Assembly (NCBI GenBank): GCA_029717555.1
Contig: JAMDHS010000003.1
Location: 1 to 64,000, forward strand
Source of the DNA: Peribolospora baueri
Lineage: Eukaryota
DNA: 64,000 nucleotides
Direction: 5' to 3'
The translations under genes were made by a program, and so were the position numbers. A model generated the notes under the pieces. It had not been told where the DNA came from. It worked only from the letters and a program-made list of their open reading frames with translations, and made no database searches. Positions 22,517 to 60,564 of this stretch are shown one piece after another (positions within the stretch are counted from its first letter, which is position 1; each line of letters begins with the position of its first letter).

Positions 22517-23445
22517 CTCTGGTTGGGCGAGTGGCGACAAATGCAGGAAATGTCGATGGGGATGAGAAATGGGTGGTACGAGGAGACGCGAGGGAAGGAG
22601 ATAGAGGGACGAGACTTATTCATGTGGGGTCGCCAATCGCCCTGGGGTTAAGGCTCTGACGTGGTCAGGTGGGCTCTAAGACTGTCAAGGGAAAGAGAGT
22701 CAGACAGGTAGTGAATCTGACACTTGGCCGTAGTGTTGTCCGCTCAAGTCGGCGTTTGCTGCGACGGAACAGCAAAGGCGCTGGAGAACAACATGATGCG
22801 GAGCACTCCACCCAGGAAAAGTGTCGCGGTTACCAAATCGCCTGTGCACAAAGTGACCCATGTCAAGCGCTGAGCCCTACGCGAGCGAGGGAAAGAACAC
22901 GGATGTTTGATAGACACGCCTTCAAGCAAGTCGTCTTGTCGTGTCCATCATGGGCGCGAGTAAGCCTTGATCGCTATCTATCAGTCGCCGCTGCGGCAAG
23001 GGCCGGATTGCTCCTCCTATCATCACGCTCATAACAAAGCCATGTCGCAACATGATAAACATGATCCTCATCGCCATCGTTGATCATAATGTCTTGGCTT
23101 TTTGCTGACTATCGCGCGGGCATCCTGGTAGCATCCTGTTGGCTGCATTCGTGCTTAACAGGTACCATGAAAAGACGGATTAAATACGGTTCCGGCCCTG
23201 TTGACGGACGCCTGTCTCGCCGCGAGACCGCCCTTTCCCGCTCTTCTGACTTCCGGTCACCTCATCCCCTCAGGTGAACCAGCTCGGGCCGTTGTCTCTG
23301 GTTCTCTCTATAATCGACTGCCTGTTCTGCATGCCCTTACTTATGATACATCCAGAGTCTGGAACAGCGAGCACAGATCTTTGTGCCATAAAGCTCAGGG
23401 TAAGGCTTTCTGTACGGCGCCACTGATTGTCACCTCACAGCAACT

Positions 23446-26400
23446 ATGGATCCTCCAATGTCACCGCCCAGACATGATCAGCATGTTCTCTGCTTCTCAT
23501 CGCAGGGCACAGACTTTCTGCCCACTATTGCTCAATTTCTCAAGCAATGCGAGCGTCAGCCCAAGCGCTTCGCCGCGCTCAGTCTCTTTCTCGACCAGAC
23601 CGCGTCTACTCTGCGTCACGACGTCAAAGCCGCCAACATTCCTGGCGTAGCTAGCTGCGACTTTCTCAGGCTTCTCGGCTTGTGCTCCTCAACTGAAAGC
23701 CCGGCGAGCGAAAGTTTGTGGGATTCTTTCTTGCCCATCGAGCGTCACATCAAGAGACATGGCAGTTTTACAGCTTCGGCACACATGATCTCTCAGATCG
23801 GTCTCTACCTCTGGTGGCTCACCGACGGCGATCTAAACCAGGAAGAAGTCGTCAGCATGAAGGCCGAGGATGCTGTGGACTGGCAGATAGGCGTATCAGG
23901 CTTCTCTTCTGGCTTCCTCGCGGCTGCCATCGTCACATACTCAAGGAATCTCACCGATCTTATCTCCAATGGAGTTCAAGCAGTCAGACTCGCGTTCTGG
24001 ATTGGGTTGGAGGCACACAAAGTTCGGCAGGAGGAGGATACTGAGGCCAACCTTTTGTGCTCCTGGTGTTTAGCCGTGAACGGCGTCGACTTCCGGCGTA
24101 TCCAGGAGCTAGTCAAGGTGTTCAACGAAACTGTGAGCCTAAGGTCCTGTCAGATTGAGCGAGTACAATTTGCACTAACACGCCCTTTTATATTTTGGAA
24201 GCTTGACGGTAATGACGGACGCCCTATTTCTCAACTCTACGTCAGCGCTGTCGCTACGCCGACGTGCGTTACGGTGAACGGACCGCACAGCGCCCTGCTA
24301 GCCTTTCGACAGCGTCTCGAGAAGGACGGCAAGACGAACTCGACGGACAAGTCAACGTTGTTTCTAGACCTTTTTACACCTTATCATTCCCGCCAACTAC
24401 TTACTACGGCCCACGAAACCGTTATCGGACACACCCTACTTCACGACATCCAGTTCATTTTCACGCCCAATTCCCGCATTGTTCTCCTTTCGCCAGTCGC
24501 TGGCACCGAAGTGACGTTGGTTGGCGGCCCCTCGGTTTCGCACGGCGACGAAATCGTTCGGACCGTCTGCGACTCTCTCCTTTTGGAGGCGTGCCGCTGG
24601 GACGAAGTATGCAGCTCCGTAGTCGACATGTTTGCCTCGGGTCCGTCTTCGGCCATGCAGATCACTGTCTTCGGTCCCAACGTCGGCTTCGCTCGTCAGC
24701 TGCGTGAGCATGTGATTGCCAGTTCGGGCCGCATGCCCGCAGATGTTTTCCTTGATAGGGTCACAGCCCGAATGGCGGGGGCGCCACGACAGCAAAGGGA
24801 CGCCAAGGAGAAGGTTGCCATCGTCGGGTTAGGATGTAGGCTTCCGGGCAACGTGGAGGAGCCGGAGGAATTGTGGGAGCTGCTCAAAGAGGGCGGCTGT
24901 ACCATGGAAGAGGTGAGCATCAGACGCTGGAGCTGAACATGAGGTATAGCTCTCTAACGCTCCTTTGTATCTTCAAAGGTACCGCCATCACGCTTCGATG
25001 TCAATGACTATTGCTCCGAAACGGGAGAGGAGCGGAACAAGATGAGAGCCCGGTACGGCCATTTTCTTTGCGAACCAGGTGCTTTTGACGCAAACTATTT
25101 CAACATGTCCCCTCGTGAGGCGCTCAACACCGACCCCCAGCAGCGCAACCTTCTCGAGACTGCGGTCAAAGCCCTAGATGATGCCGGGTATCAGCCAGAC
25201 AAGGGGGCGTGGCAACGAACCCGTATTGGATCCTTTGTGGGAGTGGCTACCGATGATTACCACCAGGCGAGTGACGGCTCATAGATCAAACGTTCGCGCA
25301 TTGGCTCTTCCTTACCTTTTTTTGGGCGGCCCCGCAGAACATTGCACAAAATATCGACTCGTACTACTGTCCGGGCACCATACGAGGCTTCGCGGCGGGT
25401 CGTCTTAGCCACTTCTTCAAATGGGAAGGACCTTCGCTCACCTTGGACACGGCATGCTCATCCAGCATGGTTGCCGTGCACGAGGCTTGTCAGGCGCTGC
25501 GCACCAACGAGTGTGACGCTGCACTGGCTGGGGGCGTCAGCATCATCTCTGCTCCAGAGATGTTCATTGGCCTCAGCAAGGGATACTTCATCTCGAACAC
25601 GGGAGGTAGCAAGACCTTTGATGAGACTGCCGACGGGTACTGCAGAGCCGAGGGGTTCGGTGTCGTTGCCCTCAAGCGCCTGAGCGATGCAATCAGAGAT
25701 GAAGATCGTATTCATGCCACCATCGTCGCGTCGGGCACCAACCAAAGCGGGACGTCCGAATCCATCACCCACCCGCATGCGCCAACTCAGGCCAAATTGT
25801 TCAAGCAGAACTGCGAGCAGGCAGGAATCGATCCGCTCTTTATCAAAGTTGTCGAAGCGCACGGCACTGGTACTCAGGCTGGTGACGTTAACGAGATGGC
25901 GAGCATTCAGGAGGCGTACTGTCGAGCGCGTCCATCGAGCGACCCCCTTTACGTGAGCGCTCTGAAGCCCAACATCGGTCACTCTGAAGCCGCTTCGGGT
26001 ATCTCCAGTTTGCTCAAGGCGGTCTTGATGCTCAAGCACAAACAAGTCGTACCTCACAAAGGGGTCATCACCCGTCTCAACACCAAGTTCAGGTCGCTCG
26101 AGGAAACTAGCATCAAGATACCGACCACCGTTGAGGACTTCCTGCCCGCGAAAGGATGCGACAGGCGCATCATATCGGTGAACAACTTTGGCGCTCCAGG
26201 TGGTAACGCAAATGTCGTCGTGGAGGAATATCTCGAACACCGGCGTGAACAGGATGTCAGCCCCAGGACACATCACGTTGTCTTGCTCTCGGCCAAGTCG
26301 GACGTCGCTCTCATCACGACAGCTCAGAAATTGGCCCAGTCACCTGGCCTTGCGACGATGAGCCTCGCGGATCTGTCTTATACAACGACCGCCCGCCGCG

Positions 26401-29400
26401 CCCGTCATCCCCTGCGGATAGCACTGAGTTATTCAAGCCATGACGAATTGCACGCTAAACTCCTTGGAAAGCTAACGCCGGTGGTCTCCAAGCCCGACAA
26501 ACCCCGTGTGGGCTTTATGTGCTCTGGTCACGGAAGCCAGTACACTGGAATGGGCAAGTCGCTTATGGAGAGCTGTCCTACCTTCCGCCGCCTTCTTCAG
26601 CACTGCGACACGGTCTGCAGGGCCTACCATAAGCCAGGCATGATCGGCGTCATTGAGGGAGCGATCAACACGACCGACACCAGGGCATCTGCCGTCATCT
26701 CGACCCATGCGGCCATGTTCTCCGTCGGTTACGCGTTGGGAAAGATGTGGGAGCAATGGGGAGTCAAGCCTGCTGCGCTCGTGGGGCACAGCCTTGGAGA
26801 GTACACCGTGGCTTGTCTCGCCGGGATCATTTCATTGGAAAATGCGCTAAAGTTGGTCGTTCGTAGGGCCGAGCTCCTCGTCAAGCATTTTGAACCCAAT
26901 CATGACGGCATTCTTGCCGCCATCGTTCCCAAGGCCAAGGCGAGGAAGCACTTGTTTCACAGCGGCTGTCAAGACGTCAGCGTGGCATGCTTTAACGCTG
27001 CAGAACAAGTCTGCTTTGCGGGACCGCGTTCTGAGCTGAATCAGTTGAGCGCATATTTCAATCGAATCAAGCCGCCAATCAGCTGCAAACTGCTGGAATC
27101 GCCTTTCGCCTTCCACACGCCGCGCATGCAAGCCGTCTCAAAGGAGCTTCGGGAGGTCGTAGCCAATATCCCTTTCGAATCAACGTCTTGCTTAATCGGC
27201 CTCAATCTTACTGGCGGTGCCGCGCCGGCGGGGCAACCCATGGACGCGGAATACTTTCCCCGGCAGCTGGAGAGTCCGGTCGAGTTTAACAAGATGTTCA
27301 CAGAAGTCGGTCCAGAGGCGGACGTATGGCTCGACCTGAGCGCTTCGCCCGTCTGTCTCGGCCTTGCCAAGGAAGTCCTTTCTCCCGCTCACCTCCTTCC
27401 AACTCTGGAGCGGAACGTCGATTGCTGGAAGAGTATAACCCGGACACTGGTTCGGCTCGAGCACGCCGGCGTTGAGCTGGACTGGGGTGCTTATCATCGG
27501 GGTCAACAGGTCAAGCTCTTGTCTCTTCCGTCCTACCCATTCTGTCACTCCAACTTTTGGATCCCTTACCGCGACCGCGACCTCATGAATAGGAGGGTCG
27601 ACGCATCGACGCATCAATCCTGGAACACCGAGCTCGGCCCGGCGGAGCAGATCGCCGAGGACACCTTCGTCTTGGATTGCACTAACCCAGCGTTTGCCAA
27701 CTTGGTCAAAGGTCATGCCGTGGGAGGCGTGGGCATCGCTCCCGCTTCCTTTTACGTCTATCTGGCGCTCGAGCTGGCCAGTGGCATCATCGTCCGGAAT
27801 TTGGAAATTCTCAGGCCCTTGGTCGCTCAGAAGCAAGATCTGCGCTTCCTCCGAGTCTGCATTCGTAGCCCTCCCGACTCGTTTAAGGAGTGCCAGTTTT
27901 ACGCCAGCTCTACCAAGGGAGAGGAAGGTACTTTGGTCGCCCATTGCCGCACTCTCCGCGACGCCAAGCTCAAGGCGTTTGAAGGCCGGCTGCCGACCGT
28001 GGACTACGCGGACAAGATCTCAAAGCCGCTCTTCTACCGGATCTTCAGCTCTGCTGCCGAGTACGGTTGGGAATTTCAAGCTGTCGAATGTGTGCATCTT
28101 CAAAACGAGGGCAAGCGTGGAAGTGTACTGGCTGATGTTAATGTCCGCGCGATGGCAAGGAAAGGACGCCAATCTGTCGGACCGATTGCGCTCGATACCT
28201 GGATGCAACCGGCGGGCTTTGCGATGAACTTATTCTCCTCGGACAAACTATTCATTGTGGGGAGCATCAACGAGATCCATCTTCCGGGCGGCCCCATCTC
28301 GGCAGCGGAACAGCAAGGCGAGCAAGAAAAGTCGCTGCTCAGGGTCGGGGTCGACTTTTCCTGGACCAACGAGCAGAAGAACGAAGGCAAGGCCGACATC
28401 TGCGTCTTCAATAGCACCGGTCGTCGCGTCGCTTCCATTAAGGGTATGCGCTTTCAAGGTGTCAAGAGGGAAAGTTGGAGGGCTAACGTTGCCGGTTTGA
28501 GCGGGGCGGTCAGAACATCGCCACAGATCAGGTCGTCCTCCTCCTCCCTGGAAGCAGCACCGACATCGCAGCCGATGTCGCAGCCAGCAGAAGAGTCGCC
28601 GTGCTCGTTTTCGCTCGTGACGTCGTCGCCCCTGTCCAGCTACAATTCTAAGAGCGGTGACGATATCAACGCCGATGACGACGACAATGAACAGGTCCAA
28701 AGGCATCCTGTGGTCAGTTCGTCACAGGAGCCGCCGCCTCAAAAGCCTTCTTCTGGGTTCGATCCCGGCGAAGCGCGGGCGACGTTCAGGAAAGCGATCG
28801 TCGAGCAGCTCGGCGTGTCTGCCGACGCTGTCTACGACGATGCGAGCCTGAGCGGGCTTGGTGTGGATTCGATCATGTCGCTTAACCTGCAGAGCGAGTT
28901 CAACCGGCTCGTGGGGCACAAGTTTCCGCGCTTCGACTTGAATGGCGACTCGACGGTGGACGATGTCCTCTCCCAAGCCTTGGCTTTTTGTGAGAAGGTG
29001 CAAGGGGGAGGAGGGTCGAGCGATTCCGGGCACAAGCGCAAGTTTGCCCTCGAATTGGAGAGCGCTGATGCATCGTTCACGCCTACGGTCGCCTCGGAGC
29101 GGACGGACGACGTGGTACATGGACAGGAAAGCAGCACCATGGTCTTCATCCTTCCCGACGCTCTGGGCAACTTTGGCTTCCTCGAGCGCTTTTCGTCGTC
29201 GTCCATCGAAACTGCCCTGATGAGGTGGCCGGACACGTTCAAGGTCTACGACACGCTGCCTGAGCTCGCGATCAGTATGAGGACCAGAATCCTTTCCCTC
29301 GCGTGCGGGCGACCTTTCATCCTTGCAGGTAAGTGTTGCGATCCATTTCCCCAGCCCTTGCTCCGTTTCCTCGTCACCTGAACTGACGGTTTTAACCCCC

Positions 29401-49789: not shown

Positions 49790-52219
49790 TCACGAAGTAT
49801 CTTGTACGTTGCTCTTCAAAAACCCGTCGAAAAGGCGCGCGCAGCCTTCGACGTCCTCGACGGCGTGCCAGTGTCCGACCCCCTCGAGTTGCACGATCCT
49901 TGACCAGCACAGAGCCTTGCCCAGCGCCTCGACCACGGGCGCGGGGCTGACCTGGTCCTCGTCGCCCGAGATGATCAGCACGGGCTGCTTGATCGATCCG
50001 TACTCCGGATCCCTGCCGATCGCCATCGCCTCGCAAGCTCGGGCGTATCCTTCGGGAGAGGCAGATTGGAGGAGCTGGCGGACGAGGGATATGGAGAGAG
50101 GACGGGAGGAGCGTGTGTGAGAGGAGAGGCCGGCGTGGAGAATGGCATTGACGACGGCGGACATGCCCTTTTCGCGGACGAGGGTGGCGCGCTCTAGGAT
50201 CGTGGGAACACGGACGGAAGGGATGGCTTTGATGGGGCCAATGAGGACTGTGAGAAGGCATCACGGAACGCGCAAAATGGTTGATATCAGTTGCATTAGC
50301 CATCCCGGTCTCTTCAAGAACATATGAAGGAAAAGACTGAGGGCGACCACTCACTCATCTTGCTGACCAGCTCAGGGTATGCTGCCGCAAAGGTATTGGC
50401 GATGAGCTGCGCCGAAGGAAAGACGAGAAAGGCGGACGAGTCAGGCCGGTCAGTCGCCATAGATTGATTCGCCAGGGTGTGATGGAAAAAGAAGGGTCCC
50501 ACTCACTCCGCCCATCGAATGTGCGACTATCACCACGGGGCCCTTCGTCGCTGTAGCTTCGAGGACGTCTTTAACGTCCTGCACGTACCCATCGATGCTA
50601 GGCCTATCCTCCTTCTGCGCTGTCCCCTTCTTCGTTCGTTGGTAGGAGACGGGACTCGACCCGTGTCCTTCGAGGTCAAAGCACACGAGCCGATGAGTCT
50701 TGCCCAGTTTGGTCGCCTCGATCACCGGCCTGAAAAAGTTGAGTGTGCCGCCAAGGCCGTGGATGAAAAGAACCGTCTCAGCCCCGCCAGATACGTCGCT
50801 GCTGGAGGGCTCGGAGATCTCTACGTGAAGGCGCTTTCCAGATGGCATAGTGACCAGGTCGCAGTCCGGGGCAGCGACCGCCGCCGAGGGGGAGAGACGA
50901 TGGCGCCACGACTCAACGCTGGGAACCTGCATTTGGTAAGGGCCCACCGTGTTGGAGAGCGTGCCAAGCCCTGTGATGGAGATGTCTACCTTGTCACCCG
51001 GCTTGAGAAACTTGGGAGGCTTGAAGCCGAAGCCAACACCAGCTGATGAAGGGAATTGTGGACGCGGGCCGCCAGGCTTAGTTGGCGACAGGGTTCTATC
51101 TCGCGCATCAGAAAATGGCTCCTCTGGAAACCCACCTGGTGTTCCAGTGGCGATGACATCGCCAGGCTGAAGTGTGATGCCATCAGAAATGGCGGAGACG
51201 AGCGTGGGGATGTCGAAGATGAGCTTGTTCGTCGTGCTGCGCTGACGGACCTCGCCGTTGACGCGGGTCTCGACCGTGAGCGAGGCGCCGTCGAGATGCG
51301 AGGAAGGGACGACGTATGGGCCCTTGTTTGGTTAATAGCCCGGATAGAGAAGGGGAAGGTTCAGAACATGGCTGAACGGAATGACAGGGGAACCGGACAG
51401 ACTCCTCGCCCAGATGGCCAGCAATCGTTTACTCTTCACTGACCATAGGACAGAAGGTATCGAGCGACTTTCCAAGATAGAACTGCTTGTGGTCCCTCTG
51501 CTTCTCCCTGGCCGTCACGTCGTTGACGATCGTGTAACCCCAGACGTGTTGCCATGCATCCTCCTTGGAGATCTTGAACCCGGCCTTGCCGATTATGACA
51601 CCCAGCTCGCCCTCGTAGTCGAGCGTCTCGGTTGTTCCCTCGTGCGGATAGATCAGAGCGCCGTGGGGAATGATTGAAGTTGCACGCTTGGTGAAGATGA
51701 CTGGGTTGCCGTTTGAATGAGGAATGCCCCCATTCGAATTTCCCGTGTCCGATGCGTCGTAGCCGGAGACGCTGAACTCTGGATGGCGCAGGCGAGCCAC
51801 AGTGGTGAGGGTGAAGACGACGATGTATACGGACTCCGAACGAACGACGGTCGGCCCACCTTTGGCGTGCTCTACGTAGTTCTTGCCCACCGCGATGACG
51901 TCCCTACCCCTCAGCGGTGCGAGGACCTTGACATCGCGAATCTTTTCCACGGGCTCGCCGGGACGGAGGGAGTCGGCGATGGCGTCCCAATCCTCGAGGA
52001 GGTCGAAGAGCTCGACGATGGGCTCGCCAGTGCACGGGTCGAGGAAGGGCGTGACCGAATCCTCGGTAGCGTTGACGAGGCCGACGCGAGGCTGAGAAGT
52101 GGCCGAGGAGAGGTAAGATAGACTTGGGCGGGGACCAATAGTGTCAGAGGGTGGTCGAACAAGAGGCGCGAGCGTGTCGGTGAGACCGTACGTAGAAGAT
52201 GCTGTACTCACAATTTCAT
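49790..52219 (-). CDS. Fumarylacetoacetate-hydrolase-family domain fused to alpha/beta-hydrolase (enol-lactonase-like); probable 8-nt first coding exon
   Basis: MK|FLSY; VGKNYVEHAK|EF, PVIFTKRATSI, LDYEGELGVIIGK, GYTIVNDVTARE, GKSLDTFCPM|GP, PGDVIATGTP|AGVG, then continuous into FIHGLGG, FDLEGHG, AHSMGG, GDED and GVGHW. Confidence 0.9.
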
Positions 52220-53443
52220 CGCGAGAAGCGTGTCGAGTCCGAGGCTGAGTGATGGAGGAGTGCGCCCTGAATATACAACGTTGAGGATCGTCGTGCGACT
52301 GCAGGCGACGACCTTGCTTGCTTTTCTCTCTTTTCCGGGGCGGTTCAATAGTGTCGCCCATCGTTGAGCGAGGCCGTCGGCGTCGGCAACGACTAACTGC
52401 GCCCACCGAAGGTCCGCTTCCCCGCTCTTGCTAACCTAACCTCACGAATCGCTTGCTTCCTTACTCACCGAGCTCCCCACCAAGGTGCGTTCCCGGTGCA
52501 GCAGATACCGGTCGAGCGCGGCAAGAAGGGCGTCAACAGAACTGCCGGCGAGAGGCAAACGTTGTTGGACGGCAAAACTCCCTCCGCCCATCGGAGATGT
52601 GTAAAAACTTCCGACCCCGGGCGACCGCGATGACAGTTGCCTTGCCGTTTTTCACTCACCTTTTTACTCCCATTCTGACAGATTTGACAGCTGCTTCCGT
52701 TGTTAGGCACCATGCCGTGCCCGTCTCGGCAGGCGGGGCGTGTGGACGGCTCCGCAAGAGCAGTCACAGTAGCGCGAGCCCACCTCGACCGATCAGAGTG
52801 TGGGGAAGACGTCGCATCGTGTGCGTTGTAGTAAGTAAGCATGTCTACGTGTCCAGTGGTTTGCATCGGTGGGTCCTGTCTGGCCTCCGAGCTACCCATC
52901 TCTGCTCGTCGGCTTCACTCAACGTCGGCTTTGCTCGCCCGGCACGTAGTATTGGCTGGCAGCCTTGGACCCTTGAGCCGCCTCGCACTCGATGAGCGCC
53001 GCCTCTGCGCCGTGCAGAGACTGCTACCACTCTCTCGTCGCTACTGGACCCCTTTATACGGCCGTCCGGCCTCGGCATAGCGATGTGCCCCGCAGTGGCA
53101 CGACAGTTTCGCCGTAGGCAACGATCGACTCGGCCGAATCGAGCCCTGCGGGGCGCTTAGCCAGTGGAGTGCCTCTGCCGTGCGACAGAGGCGGCTTTAC
53201 GGGCACCATAGCGGCGTCCAAGTGTGTTCGGGGGCCGAACACGGTGCACGACACGGTCAGCACGTCTGAGACGTACAGGTCGCCATACGCTACTTATTTG
53301 GACCACGACGTCCCTCCACACGACGGAGGGTACACAGCCCGCTGCGCTCGTCGCTTTTTGCCACCACAGCCAACGGTCAGGATTCCCTTCTCTTCTATCA
53401 GAATATCCCAGCGTCCACATCGAACAAGATCGCCTGCACGAGT

Positions 53444-56338
53444 ATGTCTTCCACCATCGGCATCTCCGCGTCCAACGGCCTGCCTTCGGGCCTCCCCCAT
53501 CCTGGTTTCAGCTCGCGCTTCACAGACTTCATGAACGGCCGTGACAAGCCGGGCGTCGATGCAAACAGCACACATTACGACGACGACGACGCCGCTTCTA
53601 TCGTGACGGCCACCACCTCTCGATCTAGGGGCAGCTCTTGGTCTCCGCCCCAGTGGATGTCTCACAACGCCGCCGTCCGCGAAGTGGGCTACGGAAATGC
53701 CAATGACGTCCAGGGAAATGCAAGCTCGACCAGCTTGAATACTCTCTCCGTTTGTGGGAATGAAAAGGTGAACGGCCATGAGACGACGTGACGTGTTAAA
53801 TCTCACTTTCGCTCGTCAGTCGGCTCGCTCGTCGACTCATGTATACGTGCATTTTCACCAGTTGAACTGGCGCCAGGTTCCAGCTTGGATGACCGAGACT
53901 GCGTACGGAAAGGTGGGCGGATATCCACGTAGTGTCCCCGTTTCGGCCTGCCTAGTCTGAAACAATTTTCCTTCTCTTTTGGAGTAAACAGACGAGAGTC
54001 AACGGTCTCGGCGAGCCTTGGAATCCCCTCCGCCCCTCCTTCCGCGGAATCGACTTCACGAAGCCGGACCCTCGCCTCAACCAACCCCAGTACGAGTTTG
54101 CCGCGTTGCCGGGAGAAGAGGCGAAAAAGGAGAATGGAGAACGGGCGATCGTGTTTGAAGACGTTCGGATCGTTGACTCGACCCACCCCCGTGCGGAACC
54201 TTATGAGGGCGACGTGTTGATCATAGGCAATAGGATCATCAAGGTCGTCAGGAAAGGTTCCGGTAAGAAACTGTCAGCTCATGAGAAGAGAGGAGCCAGG
54301 ATCATCAAGGGAAGAGGCCGGACCTTGATGAGCGGCATGGTCGACGCCCATACCCATTTCAGTTGGGTGAGCCAGATACCCCGTAGCCGCCTCGCTCCAG
54401 CGCCATAGACTTATTCATCTGCGTTTCTTGTCCCCCGTGTCCGACCATCCTTCCATCTTTCTTCTTAGACCAATACGGGCTCTTTAGACGGTCTGGGCGA
54501 CATGCCCGTCGAGGAGCATATTCTCTTCGCCGCCCGCGCTGCAAAGACCTTCCTCGACTGCGGGTACACCATGTGCCTCGGCGCCGCGAGCGCCAAACAG
54601 CGCATCGACTGCGTCATGCGCGATGCCATTTACGCCAGAGAGATACCCGGTCCCAGGTTTTTGGCCAATGGGAGGGAGATGGCGCCGAGGGATGGGTATC
54701 TCAGTGAGCTGGACGTGTGTGTAGTGACTTGTGCGAAGTCGATCGCTTACCTGCGCCTGTCCCTCGACCCCCCTCGCCGGGTATCAGTTTCCTCCATTAC
54801 TGCCTTCTGCGACGGTCCCGAAGAGACACGCGCGCTCGTTCAGGAAATGGCAGACAAGGGCGTGGACCAGATCAAGCTGAGCATGTCAGGAGAGGAAATC
54901 ACGGAGCGCATCAAAGCGGAGGACACTACCTTCACCGATGAGATGGTCGCCGTCGCTGTAGAGGTCAGTCGACGGTGTACTCCGAACACACTCTCGTTCA
55001 TTCTCCTTATCTCATTTTTCAACGTGTTTTCGTCTTCGATGTACACGCTCATCATGTCTTCCCCCTTTTTTCCCCAACACAGACCGCGCACGCCAACGGT
55101 TTGCGGGTCTGCGCTCATGCAAGGTCTGACGAGTCGGTCCTTCAATGTTTGATGTACGGCGTCGACATCATCTACGTGGGTGAATCTCGTCTATTCCGCC
55201 TCGTGCCCGAATCCTTCTTTCGCGCTTGGCGATGCTGCATTAACCGTCTCTCCTTGTCCCCGCTGGATTTCAACAACCGAATCACAGCAGTGAGTTCGAA
55301 GAAAGCTGTTCTTCTTTTCTCCTTCTTGCGCGGTTCTCCGACTCACTCCTCTTTTCATCTCCCTTTGACCCCACACCCCTCTAGTGGTTCCTTCATATCC
55401 CCGGAGACCATGGACGCCCTGGAGGCTCAGAAGGACCGTGTTTTCGTTGCCCCTGCTATCAATTGGATCGTCAGCACGCTCTATGATGCCGGAGCGTTTG
55501 GGTACCCGCCCTCCAGAGCCGAAAGCGTCGGCTACAAGCGCGAGCTCGAAGAGGCTGTCAAAGGCCTTAAAGAGATGCGAAGGAGGGGAATTCGTGTCCT
55601 TCCTGGTGGGGTGAGCGTTGGCATCCATGGTATCTCCAAGAGCGTATCTTCTCATACGCTTGATCACGCTAACATTGGATCTACCTACTTTTTTTCTTCA
55701 TCTCTCGTTCTTGTTGTTCGTGCCATTTGCCTCTGCCGCAGGACTATGGGTTTGCTTGGACGCCGCACGGACACTACCGTGACCTGGAGCACTTTGTCAA
55801 CCTGATGGGCTACACTCCTTTGGAAGCCATCTATGCCGCCACGGCGCTCGGTGGCCAACTCATGCTTCGTCCCAACGATCTGGGCAAGGTTCAACCGGGC
55901 TACCTCGCCGACCTGATCCTCGTCAATGGAGACCCGACGAAGGACGTCTCCCTGCTCAGCAGCCACGAGAACTTGGACCTTATCCTCATTAACGGTCGGA
56001 TCCACAAAGAAACTGTAAGCCCTCTGAGGACGAACGTTTCGATCCTCACCACGAAACTGCGGTCGTTCTGTTCAAGTCGCTCGTCAAACAAAGACTTTCT
56101 TTCACGAACCAGTCGTCATGTTTATCGCTTCGCCTCTCTCTTGCAGATCAAAGACCCCGACTGGCAAGCAATCACTGCCATTACCGCCGCCGAAAATGAG
56201 GCGCAGCTGCGCCGCGACGCCTTCGCGGCCGTCGACAAGATCACCAGTGGCGTACGCTCTCTCCCTCTCGGCACGACTGACGACTTGACCGATACTTGGA
56301 GAAAGCCGATCACGGGCCTCGTCGCTGCGGCCCATTGA
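53444..56338 (+). CDS. Metal-dependent amidohydrolase (prolidase-like subgroup); predicted 2-nt exon 55288-55289; start uncertain
   Basis: GRTLMSGMVDAHTH (HxH), IPGPRFL, GVDQIKL (Lys), CAHARS, GVDIIY|H|GSF, PGG|DYGF, AIYAATALGG, GKVQPGYLADLILVNGDP. Confidence 0.88.
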
Positions 56339-58167: not shown

Positions 58168-58569
58168 GAAACTCGAGATCCACAGGTTTGCCGTAAGTGG
58201 TGGCAGAGGAGGGGGTGGAAGGAAAGCGTATGGTTTTACTGGCTGTCGGGGCGATTGCCGTGGTCGTCGTCGCTGACGTGATCCAAAATGCGGCTGATCG
58301 TCGTTCCGCCTCTTCGACCATGATCGGCACCGATGAGCGCAAATATAGGATTCGACTACCAAGCTCACCCGCCGAGGTCGCACATCTCCTGCTCGGCGCC
58401 CATGGTGCCTCGGACGAGCACGGCCTGCAGTCACCTCAACTCGTTCGCCATCCGCGTTCGCCCAGCTACGACGTGGCGCTTCCCGCTGGACTCCCACTCA
58501 CGCCGACATCTGCGTTTTGACGGTAGCCCAGCTGTTGGTACGCACTCTCAAAGACGTTTCTTTACCATC

Positions 58570-60564
58570 ATGCCAGATCCATCGCGGGGTTCATCGGAGA
58601 GCTGGCAAGAAAGAGAAAAGGTGTCGAATGGCACACCGTTCCCTTCCGCGACTGCCTTCGACTCTGGGGTATGCCATGCTGACGAGGGGAAGCGGTCGTC
58701 GCGAGGACACCAGCGCAAGGGGTGGAATGGCAAGCGGCGGGCCACATTTCAGAAAAGCAGTGGTGAAGGTTGCACAGAAGGTGCACAGCAAGGCGAACTT
58801 GAAGACAAAGTTGCGGAAGGAGGTGCCTTCAAAGGCAAGAGCAAGCGGCGCAAGGGGCCGCCACCGATCCCTCGACCACGCCCGACCCACTTCCTCTCCA
58901 TCCCGCTCGTCTCCTCCGTGCTGTCGGACCGTGTCGGGGTGCTGTACGACGACCTGCTCCGCAACCAGGACGCTGTGCAAGGCTTGGACCGGAGCATCAT
59001 CATTCCTGCCCAGCGTTTACATCTCACGCTTGGCGTGATGGCTTTGGGCGAGGAGGGGGAGGGGTGGAGGCGTAGGTGGAGAAAGGAGGTGAGAACAAGG
59101 AAATGGAAGAGGAAAGGCAAGGAAGAGCCAGAAGCACGAGAATCGAATGGTGACGAAGAGCACACGGAGGGAGCCCGCGCGCCATCTCCACCTCCCATCG
59201 CCCTCGACTCCACGGTGGCGGACGCAGGAAGGCATCCAACCTCAGGAGAGATGTGCGGGATGGAGAAGGAGGATGGAGAACAAAATGGAGAAGACGAATT
59301 ACTCCTGCAAGGCCCCTCACTTCCCAAACCTTCAGACGCCGTCCGGCTCCTGCGTTCACTTCGTCCCGCCATCCTCGCCCAGCTCGCTTCCACTACATCC
59401 TCATCGGCGTCAGCGATGATGGTGTCGTCTGCCAACACAGTCTCTCCTTCAGTGTCACCATCAACCTCCAATGCCTCCTTCTCACAGCTATCCATAGCTG
59501 TGAATAGGCTGGGAACCTTTCCTGACGGCCCGAAGGCGAACGCGGAGAACGTGAGAGTGTTGTGGGCGGCTCCTGATGAGGACCAGGAGGCGACGAGGAG
59601 GTTGAGAGGCGTTTGTGGTGAGTTGCGCAGTGCGAGATAAGGCGCAAGGCAAGGCTGTGGGACAGGTAGGCAGTAGACTAATGCCGCGGAAGGCGATCGT
59701 CTTCATTTCCCATCTATTCGCAGACATCGTCCTGCGGGCGTTTACGCAGGCCGGTTTCATGGCGGAAGGGACGAATGAGGAGGAGTTCAAGGTACGTTGG
59801 CATCTTTTATTTTTGACCCACTTCCTCTTTTTATGACGTCTCCCTTATCGTAGACGTCATGCAGGCTGACTTATCCGCTGATGAATGACCATCCATGACC
59901 GTGTTCCCTGTTATTCACTTTTCTTGTTCATTTGGCCATAAAGCTTCACATGACTCTTCTCAACACCTCCAAACGATTCCCCCGGCCCAAACCGAACGAG
60001 ATGCGGCGCAACGGATTCTCCTTCTCGGACATTCGCCGTCTTCTAGCTGAGTCAGTTCCGCTCTCTCCTTGGGTGGAGCGTCCGAGTTTGACAACAAGCG
60101 AGGCTGTCGAGTTGGCGAAGGGCACGACGATGATGGTTACACCGACGTCGACAACGGCCACGAGCGCGACGTTTGAAGGAAAGACGGGGTCATCCAGAAC
60201 AGACGGAGAAGGCGAAGGTGGTGCTGCCTCGCTGAGGACTGCGAGTGCAGTGGTTCCCGAGTACGAACAAGGCACCATGAGTTTTCGAGGGGAGGGAAGG
60301 GCACGAGCAACACCAGCAGTGGTATTAGACGTTGGCGTGGACGACCGAGCCCCCTCCATCCCGCATGTCGGGTCTTCTGAAACTGTCGACTGGTCAGCAT
60401 CGTCGTTTCTTCCGTCATCGTTCCCATCCCCTGAGCCGACTATCCATCTCAATCTCGGTTTGGTCCCCCTCCGCTCGATCGAGGTGTGCTCGATGGGCTC
60501 ATGGGACGAGGAAGGGAGGTATGTGAGCTTGGGAGGAATCGCTTTATGTCACAACGATGGATAG
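58570..60564 (+). CDS. 2H phosphoesterase, AKAP7/ASCC1-like 2',5'-RNA-ligase-like domain
   Basis: RPTHFLSIPL, RLHLTLGVM (HxT 1), RVLWAAP, K|LHMTLLNT (HxT 2), IEVCSMGS..GRY. Confidence 0.8.

What the first reader, a model, noticed from the sequence alone, without database searches (positions are those of the whole stretch)
55176..55388. Apparent 2-nt exon (CA, 55288-55289) that builds a predicted metal-ligand histidine of the amidohydrolase
Seen: the exon ends ...GVDIIY at donor GTGGGT (55176, phase 0). The next large exon begins T GGT TCC TTC after CTAG (55385, phase 2). Between them is cacAG|CA|GTGAGT, giving introns of 112 and 95 nt. CA+T = His, producing GVDIIY-H-GSF. Established: amidohydrolase TIM barrels carry a metal-binding His after strand 6, and no other His is available at that position. 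Inference: skipping this exon would frameshift and inactivate the enzyme, so it could act as a splicing switch.
Basis: partly seen in the sequence, partly recalled or inferred. Interest (0 to 1): 0.8.

Follow-up and report, generated by a model that had tools for sequence, protein, structure and literature searches.

The report
Two-base exon completes amidohydrolase metal histidine
A fungal metal-dependent hydrolase gene can only encode one of its zinc-binding histidines if a two-base exon between two ordinary short introns is spliced in, a rare gene structure that is already known from other mushroom-type fungi.

Summary
The exon ends ...GVDIIY at 55175. It is followed by donor GTGGGT, a 112-nt intron, CACAG|CA|GTGAGT (CA = 55288-55289), a 95-nt intron, and CTAG|T GGT TCC from 55385.

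- All 227 fetched homologs that cover the site have exactly one His there, with no insertion.
- Among 32 one-intron and 92 two-intron in-frame GT/GC-AG models, only the CA microexon gives ...IIYHGSF.
- A profile built from 120 homologs scores this isoform highest.
- The His is the second M-beta metal ligand. It lies 20 residues after the first and 61 after the bridging Lys, as in ochratoxinase and CaeD.
- Chance is unlikely: AG|CA|GT with a consensus donor arose in 2 of 50,000 shuffles.

No RNA run was listed, so inclusion is inferred, not seen. Seven fungal genomic comparators lack both introns, so there is no support from conservation.

The "splicing switch" idea has no support. Exons of 2 nt are already documented: 57 in Coprinopsis cinerea (PMC12230235). 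This scan has noted two other cases in other fungal genomes. The finding is a new member of a known kind.

The parts
53998..54366 (+). Exon of the amidohydrolase gene (VNGLGEPW...DAHTHFSW). It carries the HxH metal motif. The 5' end of this exon and the exons upstream (candidate ATG at 53444) are not resolved.
   Evidence: tblastn of P0002, P0004 and P0030; gene model; upstream candidates
54367..54468 (+). Intron, 102 nt, GTGAGC...TTAG
54469..54703 (+). Exon (TNTGSLDGL...APRDGYL, ends in phase 1)
54704..54787 (+). Intron, 84 nt, GTGAGC...TCAG
54788..54963 (+). Exon (ISSITAF...IKLSMSGEE...AVAVE). It carries the bridging Lys.
54964..55082 (+). Intron, 119 nt, GTCAGT...ACAG. Fungal comparators appear to have an intron at the same position, before (A/T)AH.
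55083..55175 (+). Exon (TAHANGLRVCAHARSDESVLQCLMYGVDIIY, ends in phase 0). It carries the first M-beta His.
55176..55287 (+). Intron 1 of the pair, 112 nt, GTGGGT...CACAG. The only yTrAy match is TTAAC at 55240-55244, and there is no AG between it and the acceptor.
55288..55289 (+). 2-nt microexon CA. It supplies the first two bases of the His codon, which is completed by T at 55385.
55290..55384 (+). Intron 2 of the pair, 95 nt, GTGAGT...CTAG. TTGAC lies at 55365-55369, with its A 16 nt from the acceptor.
55385..55610 (+). Exon starting in phase 2 (T + GSFISPETMDAL...RVLPGG)
55611..55741 (+). Intron, 131 nt, GTGAGC...GCAG
55742..56014 (+). Exon (DYGFAWTPHG...INGRIHKET). It carries the Asp ligand. 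PF01979 scores 33.5 bits against a cut-off of 25.
56015..56146 (+). Intron, 132 nt, GTAAGC...GCAG
56147..56338 (+). Last exon, with stop TGA at 56336-56338

Best explanation
The gene at about 53.4-56.3 kb (+) encodes a subtype-I binuclear metal amidohydrolase. It belongs to PF01979 and the COG1228-like prolidase / carboxypeptidase / ochratoxinase group. It comes from an intron-rich, basidiomycete-like fungus.

The codon for its second M-beta histidine is split by two ordinary short introns, of 112 and 95 nt, that lie only 2 nt apart. The mature mRNA therefore contains a constitutive 2-nt internal exon, CA, which together with the T at 55385 forms the His codon.

The 3' splice site of intron 1 and the 5' splice site of intron 2 overlap in the space that U2AF and U1 would need. 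The two introns are therefore most likely removed one after the other by intron definition, in either order, much as in recursive splicing. This step is inferred.

Shown here:
- the sequence anatomy
- the uniqueness of this splice solution
- the requirement of the His by homology

Inferred: that the cell actually splices the gene this way, and does so constitutively.
For: 1. Anatomy at the stated coordinates is as described.
2. The eight-exon model that includes CA is stop-free. Its 521-aa core is 62.9-65.4% identical to fungal homologs P0002, P0004 and P0030 over 450-460 aligned columns, and 57.5% identical to bacterial P0047.
3. Of 236 fetched homologs, 227 cover the site. All 227 have His with zero inserted residues between the Tyr/Phe/Cys and the [AG]S. 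Eight are fragments that do not reach the site. One (P0229) has a non-homologous stretch of about 55 residues there.
4. I enumerated all GT/GC-AG models with introns of at least 35 nt. This gave 32 one-intron and 92 two-intron in-frame models. Only 55176-55287 plus 55290-55384 gives ...IIYHGSF. Every one-intron model adds at least 9 residues.
5. A profile HMM built from 120 homologs gives these scores:
   - CA microexon isoform: 772.1 bits
   - CT microexon (Leu): 765.9 bits
   - His deleted: 760.4 bits
   - best one-intron model: 752.2 bits
   - full retention: 744.3 bits
6. The 210-nt span looks like intron, not coding sequence.
   - Its GC3 is 0.557, below the minimum of 0.600 in any 70-codon CDS window.
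   - Its codon log-odds is -0.43, against a CDS minimum of +0.23.
   - Its C+T content is 0.67, like the other five introns (0.64) and unlike the CDS (0.49).
7. Introns of 112 and 95 nt fall within the 84-132 nt range of the other five introns. A single 209-nt intron would be the longest.
8. Chance is unlikely: 2 of 50,000 shuffles gave AG|CA|GT with a consensus-type donor.
9. Ligand spacings in the model are K to H = 41 and H to H = 20. These equal AnOTA (Lys246/His287/His307) and CaeD (K186/H227/H247). The His also aligns with the H of GVDTIEHGS in 2p9b and of GVRTIEHGN in 3mkv.
10. There is precedent. Long-read annotation of Coprinopsis cinerea lists 57 exons of 2 nt in 50 genes (PMC12230235, passages). 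A 1-nt exon in Fusarium CYP621A is confirmed by SRA reads according to its abstract (PMC12940212).
Against: - There is no transcript evidence of any kind for this locus.
- There is no support from conservation. Seven fungal comparators that look genomic have the Tyr and His codons contiguous: L002, L003, P0126, P0130, P0134, P0141 and P0144. Three of the eight examined (L003, P0141 and P0140, the last of which does not cover the Tyr-His junction) instead have an intron in the Ser codon, 5 nt downstream of the window's intron 2.
- No close relative of the organism was found. The best identity was 82% over the 74-aa exon and 57% over the N-terminal exon.
- Donor 1 (GTGGGT) departs from the GTRAGY form of five of the other six donors in the gene (the sixth, GTCAGT, also departs).
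- Its only yTrAy branch candidate lies 44 nt from the acceptor. Three of the other five introns have no yTrAy match at all, so the branch model is weak.
- A direct 55176 to 55384 splice that skips CA is possible in principle, and its share is unknown.
Confidence: 0.8

Rival explanations
1. Regulated switch. The 2-nt exon is real, but its inclusion varies with conditions. Skipping would give a frameshift and a premature stop, and probably NMD. Double retention would give an in-frame 70-residue insert that removes the metal His. Either way, enzyme output would be tuned by splicing.
For: - Skipping gives a stop after 33 codons, and double retention is in frame.
- Donor 1 is less consensus-like than donor 2.
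- A regulated microexon has been reported in a filamentous fungus: Trichoderma virens Xlr2 (PMC11121469, abstract only).
Against: - There are no expression data.
- Stop-free read-through occurs in 19% of shuffles.
- The insert has non-coding composition.
- Any exon whose length is not a multiple of 3 shifts the frame when skipped, so this property is not a sign of regulation.
- The Coprinopsis passages describe such exons as annotation features, 63 of 89 gene models being broken when they are omitted. They do not describe them as switches.
Confidence: 0.07
2. Decaying or inactive gene copy. The 209 nt are removed as one intron (frameshift) or retained, the His is lost, and AG|CA|GTGAGT is a chance pair of cryptic signals.
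For: - Neither intron of the pair is seen in any comparator.
- There is no RNA evidence.
- Cryptic splice-site pairs do occur inside long fungal introns. An earlier scan note, e1-7522345, describes such a case in another genome (not checked here).
Against: - All other seven junctions keep the frame, and there are no stops in 521 codons at 63-65% identity to homologs.
- All other ligands are intact at the canonical spacing.
- Chance gives the motif with a consensus donor in 2 of 50,000 shuffles.
- The two bases are exactly those needed for the invariant residue.
Confidence: 0.08
3. Assembly or sequencing error in or near 55170-55390. The true locus would have a different structure, for example one intron and an intact His codon.
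For: No reads could be laid on the locus, and no whole genome is held.
Against: - An error would have to create a perfect AG|CA|GTGAGT inside intron-like sequence.
- The span is twice the typical intron length, as expected for two introns.
- There are no N runs and no repeats: a blastn of the span against the window finds only itself.
Confidence: 0.03

Closest known systems
[quoted passage not shown]
   Same: - It is a basidiomycete with internal exons of 1 nt (13), 2 nt (57, in 50 genes) and 3 nt (27).
- Omitting them breaks the gene model (63 of 89 gene models).
- They are missed by standard predictors.
   Different: - The Coprinopsis exons rest on long-read cDNA, whereas this one rests on homology and splice signals only.
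- In the passages I read, enrichment is reported for P450 genes, and no amidohydrolase case is mentioned. I did not open the supplements.
One-nucleotide exon of Fusarium CYP621A P450 genes (PMC12940212; abstract and passages)
   Same: - An ultra-short exon sits inside a codon of a conserved motif.
- It was detected because the apparent intron is about twice the usual length and because homologs demand the residue.
- AG and GT flank it directly.
   Different: - It is 1 nt rather than 2 nt, and in an ascomycete.
- It is conserved in 20 or more orthologs and confirmed by SRA reads.
- The exon here is not found in any comparator and has no reads.
1-nt microexons of plant APC11 and VPS55 (PMC8831610; passages)
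   Same: - They are flanked by two introns, have a strong GTRAGT donor after the microexon, and are missing from annotations.
- Intronless homologs carry the base or bases inside a large exon.
   Different: - They are in plants and are anciently conserved.
- Alternative forms are documented for VPS55.
Recursive splicing (PMC6224609, abstract only) and fungal stwintrons (abstracts)
   Same: A long intervening stretch is probably removed by two consecutive splicing reactions, with the second site used after the first ligation. This is a resemblance in mechanism and is inferred.
   Different: - In a stwintron, or at a zero-length ratchet point, nothing from the interior stays in the mRNA. Here 2 nt must stay.
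- No splice signal is interrupted by the other intron, so this is not a stwintron.
Subtype-I binuclear amidohydrolases: 2p9b, 3mkv, 3mtw (Cc2672), 3feq/3n2c, 4c5y (ochratoxinase); ligand descriptions in PMC11342369 and PMC5636949 (passages)
   Same: - It has HxH, a bridging Lys, two M-beta His residues 20 apart, and an Asp.
- Homolog P0002 matches PF01979 end to end.
   Different: - The substrate is unknown.
- Fungal members have an N-terminal extension of about 100 residues.
- No structure was matched to the window's own protein. The search with P0001, which carries the 70-residue read-through, found 0 chains.

Membership tests
Ultra-short (3 nt or less) internal microexon | A canonical 3' splice site lies directly upstream and a canonical 5' splice site directly downstream | tested here: met
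   CACAG|CA|GTGAGT at 55283-55295
Ultra-short (3 nt or less) internal microexon | Both flanking introns are complete and of normal size for the gene | tested here: met
   They are 112 and 95 nt, against 84-132 nt for the other five introns. Donors are GTGGGT and GTGAGT, and acceptors are CAG and TAG. yTrAy candidates lie 44 nt and 16 nt upstream of the acceptors, measured from the branch A.
Ultra-short (3 nt or less) internal microexon | Inclusion is needed to keep the frame and restore a conserved residue | tested here: met
   It is the unique solution among 124 in-frame models. His is present in 227 of 227 site-covering homologs. The isoform has the highest profile score.
Ultra-short (3 nt or less) internal microexon | Junction reads or cDNA show inclusion | not testable with these tools
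   No run was listed for the locus, and no genome is held.
Ultra-short (3 nt or less) internal microexon | The same arrangement occurs in related species | tested here: not met
   Seven fungal genomic comparators have Tyr-His contiguous. None of them is a close relative, so this does not speak against the exon in this lineage.
Amidohydrolase superfamily, subtype I (PF01979) | Pfam Amidohydro_1 match above the gathering score | tested here: met
   Exon 55742-56014 scores 33.5 bits against a cut-off of 25. Five other exons, tested singly, gave no hit. Homolog P0002 scores 67.1 bits over profile positions 1-340.
Amidohydrolase superfamily, subtype I (PF01979) | Six metal ligands: HxH, bridging Lys, two His, and Asp | tested here: met
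   H118, H120, K231, H272, H292 and D368 of the core model. The K-to-H spacing of 41 and the H-to-H spacing of 20 are identical to AnOTA and CaeD. H292 exists only if the microexon is included. Carboxylation of the Lys was not tested.
Regulated microexon switch | Inclusion level changes with condition or cell type | not testable with these tools
   There are no RNA data.
Regulated microexon switch | Both isoforms are productive | tested here: not met
   Skipping gives a stop after 33 codons. Single-intron retentions shift the frame. Double retention inserts 70 residues of non-coding composition at a metal ligand.
Stwintron (spliceosomal twin intron) | An internal intron interrupts a splice signal of an external intron, and the whole unit is removed | tested here: not met
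   The two bases between the introns must stay in the mRNA to give His, and no single outer intron restores the protein. The definition is taken from abstracts.

The most novel reading that the evidence does not exclude
The 2-nt exon could be a lineage-specific on/off device for the enzyme. Inclusion would build the second M-beta histidine. Direct splicing from 55175 to 55385 would yield an NMD substrate. The cell would shift between the two with nutrient or stress state. A related reading is that the 30 nt around this His codon are a hot spot of intron turnover in fungi. Three different intron positions are seen within about 30 nt in L002, L003/P0141/P0140 and the window. On that reading, the microexon is a snapshot of an intron being shifted by gain of a second intron next to the first.
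Probability: 0.06. Interest if true: 0.6.

Novelty: new member of a known kind. Interest (0 to 1): 0.3.

Why it matters
- **Annotation.** Standard gene predictors will break or truncate this gene, or give it a 70-residue insert that lacks a catalytic residue. The locus is a clean test case for microexon-aware annotation, because homology fixes the answer to a single base pair.
- **Biology.** It shows that an active-site metal ligand can depend on the accurate joining of a 2-nt exon. This is a demanding task for the spliceosome, since the 3' and 5' splice sites are 2 nt apart.
- **Novelty.** It does not open a new kind of system. Exons of 1-3 nt are already catalogued in a basidiomycete, an ascomycete and plants. 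This scan has also noted other 2-nt exons in other fungal genomes.

Tried and rejected
- **RNA evidence.** The look-up of sequencing runs on window:54100-56340, kind rna, listed no RNA holder. Read laying could therefore not be used.
- **Whole genome.** None is held, so paralogs, genome-wide intron statistics and other microexons could not be examined.
- **P0001 searches.** P0001 is the read-through translation of 55083-55609. It found 0 PDB chains and 0 Pfam families, probably because the 70-residue non-homologous insert splits two short homologous pieces. I used homolog P0002 and single exons instead.
- **Close relatives.**
  - Three protein searches found no protein above 82% identity.
  - They found no model with an anomaly confined to the His site.
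  - P0229 (Uncinocarpus reesii) lacks the site. However, its anomaly spans about 55 residues, including both M-beta histidines, so it looks like a frame-shifted model and not a missed microexon.
- **Metagenome scan.** It returned 12 loci. I examined five of them (L001, L002, L003, L004, L012). Only L002 and L003 are intron-bearing fungal DNA, and neither shares the arrangement. L005-L011 were not examined.
- **Duplication or introner origin.** The two introns share only a 13-nt match (E = 0.029). The 209-nt span matches nothing else in the window. Rejected for this window; the rest of the genome is unknown.
- **Window-wide pattern AGNNGTRAGT.** There were 8 matches against 2.8 expected. This pattern also describes ordinary exon ends, so it says nothing about microexons.
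- **First regex for the His site.** It missed 15 of 120 homologs. These have N, H, K or D instead of G before VD, and all 15 have the His. A second regex failed on all 32 new proteins and was replaced by pairwise alignment.
- **Cryptococcus papers** (PMC3990503, PMC8022950). They mention microexons only as a read-mapper setting.
- **5' end of the gene.** Only candidates were found: ATG at 53444, donors at 53684 or 53768, and an acceptor ending at 53991. It was not resolved.
Full report
**Observation.** The window is GC-rich (0.54-0.63 per 2 kb), and this gene has many introns of about 100 nt.
- ...GGC GTC GAC ATC ATC TAC ends at 55175, and GTGGGT begins at 55176.
- CACAG ends at 55287, CA is 55288-55289, and GTGAGT begins at 55290.
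- CTAG ends at 55384, and T GGT TCC TTC begins at 55385.
- The two intervals are 112 nt and 95 nt.

**The gene.** tblastn with three fungal homologs defines the exons. With GT-AG boundaries, the core model is 53998-54366, 54469-54703, 54788-54963, 55083-55175, 55288-55289, 55385-55610, 55742-56014 and 56147-56338.
- It translates without a stop into 521 residues.
- These are 62.9-65.4% identical to P0002 (Meira), P0004 (Tremella) and P0030 (Rhodotorula) over 450-460 aligned columns. They are 57.5% identical to bacterial P0047.
- The 5' end is unresolved. Candidates are an ATG at 53444 and one more intron.
- Exon 55742-56014 passes the PF01979 threshold, and P0002 matches PF01979 over its whole length.
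- The nearest solved structures are 2p9b, 3mkv, 3mtw, 3feq/3n2c, 2qs8 and, further off, ochratoxinase 4c5y.
- Top hits are almost all Basidiomycota. The best identity is only 82% over the 74-residue exon and 57% over the N-terminal exon. No close relative is in the searched collections.

**Is the His required?** I aligned all 236 fetched homologs pairwise to the model.
- 227 cover the site, and all 227 have His with no inserted residue.
- Eight are fragments that stop short of the site.
- One (P0229) has a non-homologous stretch of about 55 residues over both M-beta histidines, which looks like a faulty model.
- HMMER aligns the His of P0002 with the H of GVDTIEHGS in 2p9b and of GVRTIEHGN in 3mkv.
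- Passages in two papers name the ligands. In Aspergillus niger ochratoxinase they are His111/His113/Asp378 (M-alpha), His287/His307 (M-beta) and carboxylated Lys246 (PMC11342369). In CaeD they are H61/H63/D317, H227/H247 and K186 (PMC5636949).
- In the window model the spacings Lys to His (41) and His to His (20) are identical to both.
- The His made by CA+T is therefore the second M-beta ligand. Calling it the strand-6 His follows the usual numbering of the superfamily. I recall this numbering and did not test it.

**Is the microexon the only way to get it?** No single intron can supply CA, whatever its splice dinucleotides. The genome has GTG after TAC and AG before the T.
- I enumerated GT/GC donors and AG acceptors between 55150 and 55410, with introns of at least 35 nt. 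This gave 32 one-intron and 92 two-intron models that keep the frame without a stop.
- Exactly one gives ...MYGVDIIYHGSFISPE.
- One other model has the right length but puts Leu there and needs the poor donor GTTCTT.
- All one-intron models add 9 or more residues.
- A profile HMM built from 120 homologs ranks the CA isoform first:
  - 772.1 bits for the CA isoform
  - 765.9 bits for the CT microexon (Leu)
  - 760.4 bits with the His deleted
  - 752.2 bits for the best one-intron model
  - 744.3 bits for full retention

**Intron or coding insert?** The 210 nt are stop-free in frame, but so are 19% of dinucleotide shuffles. Their composition is that of the gene's other introns.
- C+T is 0.67, against 0.64 for the other introns and 0.49 for the CDS.
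- GC3 is 0.557, below every 70-codon CDS window (minimum 0.600).
- Codon-usage log-odds is -0.43, against a CDS minimum of +0.23.
- The other five introns are 84-132 nt long. The two halves therefore have normal lengths, while a single 209-nt intron would be an outlier.

**Chance.** I ran 50,000 shuffles of the interior of the span.
- AG|CA|GT with both flanks at least 35 nt long occurred in 319.
- With a GTRAGY or GTRNGT donor it occurred in 2.
- With GT[AG]AGT it occurred in 0.

**What is missing.** There is no RNA evidence: no run was listed and no genome is held. There is also no support from conservation.
- Fungal contig L002 has its intron seven codons upstream and an uninterrupted His codon.
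- L003 has CAT GGA T|GTGAGT...CAG|CA, an intron in phase 1 of the Ser codon, 5 nt downstream of the window's intron 2.
- ORF fragments P0141 and P0140 fit the L003 position.
- P0126, P0130, P0134 and P0144 read straight through the site. Their genomic origin is inferred from non-homologous in-frame extensions.
- The pair of introns is thus lineage-specific as far as can be seen.
- By contrast, the intron before (A/T)AH at 54964-55082 seems to be shared.
- The two introns are not copies of each other or of anything else in the window.

**Mechanism (inferred).** The AG of intron 1 lies at positions -4 and -3 relative to donor 2, inside the stretch that U1 pairs with. Both sites can hardly be occupied at once. 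Sequential removal by intron definition is therefore the likely route.
- If intron 2 goes first, intron 1 sees a normal 228-nt downstream exon.
- If intron 1 goes first, donor 2 is preceded by ...TAC CA.
- This resembles recursive splicing, in which a 5' splice site is used after a first ligation (PMC6224609, abstract).
- It is not a stwintron, because 2 nt must remain in the mRNA (abstracts).

**Switch idea.** Skipping CA gives 33 out-of-frame codons and a stop. Retaining either intron alone shifts the frame. These are generic consequences of an exon whose length is not a multiple of three. Nothing at the locus points to regulation.

**Known context.**
- The long-read re-annotation of Coprinopsis cinerea reports 13 exons of 1 nt, 57 of 2 nt (in 50 genes) and 27 of 3 nt (PMC12230235, passages).
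- A 1-nt exon inside the PKG motif of Fusarium CYP621A is supported by SRA reads. The same argument from a double-length intron is made there (PMC12940212, abstract and passages).
- Plants have conserved 1-nt exons in APC11 and VPS55 (PMC8831610, passages).
- Searches for the phrases '2-nt exon', '2-nt microexon' and similar found 4 papers. The only hit for '2-nt exon' itself was a preprint on viroid-based dsRNA production, and none of the four listed titles concerns a fungal 2-nt exon.
- I did not open the supplements of the Coprinopsis paper. They may list whether an amidohydrolase is among its 50 genes.
- Earlier notes of this scan describe 2-nt exons in two other fungal genomes and reached the same classification. 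I did not check them.

**Verdict.**
- A constitutive 2-nt exon is the best explanation, with confidence 0.8.
- The switch reading is unsupported.
- The finding is a new member of a known kind and is of moderate-to-low interest, mainly as an annotation test case.

Noticed in passing
window 23404-29381 (+): Two long ORFs carry SAT, KS, AT, PS-DH (product-template-like) and ACP domains. This is the layout of a fungal non-reducing polyketide synthase, apparently split by an intron or frame change between 24936 and 25275.
   Followed up: no
window 51429-52430 (-), and protein P0234: A fumarylacetoacetate-hydrolase-family gene (PF01557) lies about 1-2.5 kb upstream of the amidohydrolase gene (depending on its unresolved 5' end), on the opposite strand. 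One Aspergillus homolog, P0234 (1067 aa), carries PF01557, amidohydrolase and alpha/beta-hydrolase domains in a single protein. This hints that the two enzymes work in one pathway.
   Followed up: no
L003:730-800; proteins P0141, P0140: Three fungal comparators share an intron in phase 1 of the Ser codon two codons after the metal His. L002 has one seven codons upstream. With the window's two introns, this makes four intron positions within about 30 nt of this codon in different fungi.
   Followed up: partly
window 58324-59640 (+): An ORF matches the AKAP7 2'5' RNA ligase-like domain (PF10469, E = 1.2e-11).
   Followed up: no
protein P0229 (Uncinocarpus reesii model): The deposited protein has about 55 non-homologous residues in place of the segment that holds both M-beta histidines. 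It is probably a frame-shifted gene model or a pseudogene.
   Followed up: partly
window 55283-55291: The acceptor of intron 1 is part of a CAGCAG tandem. The second AG (55289-90) overlaps the G of donor 2, so using it would destroy the microexon.
   Followed up: partly
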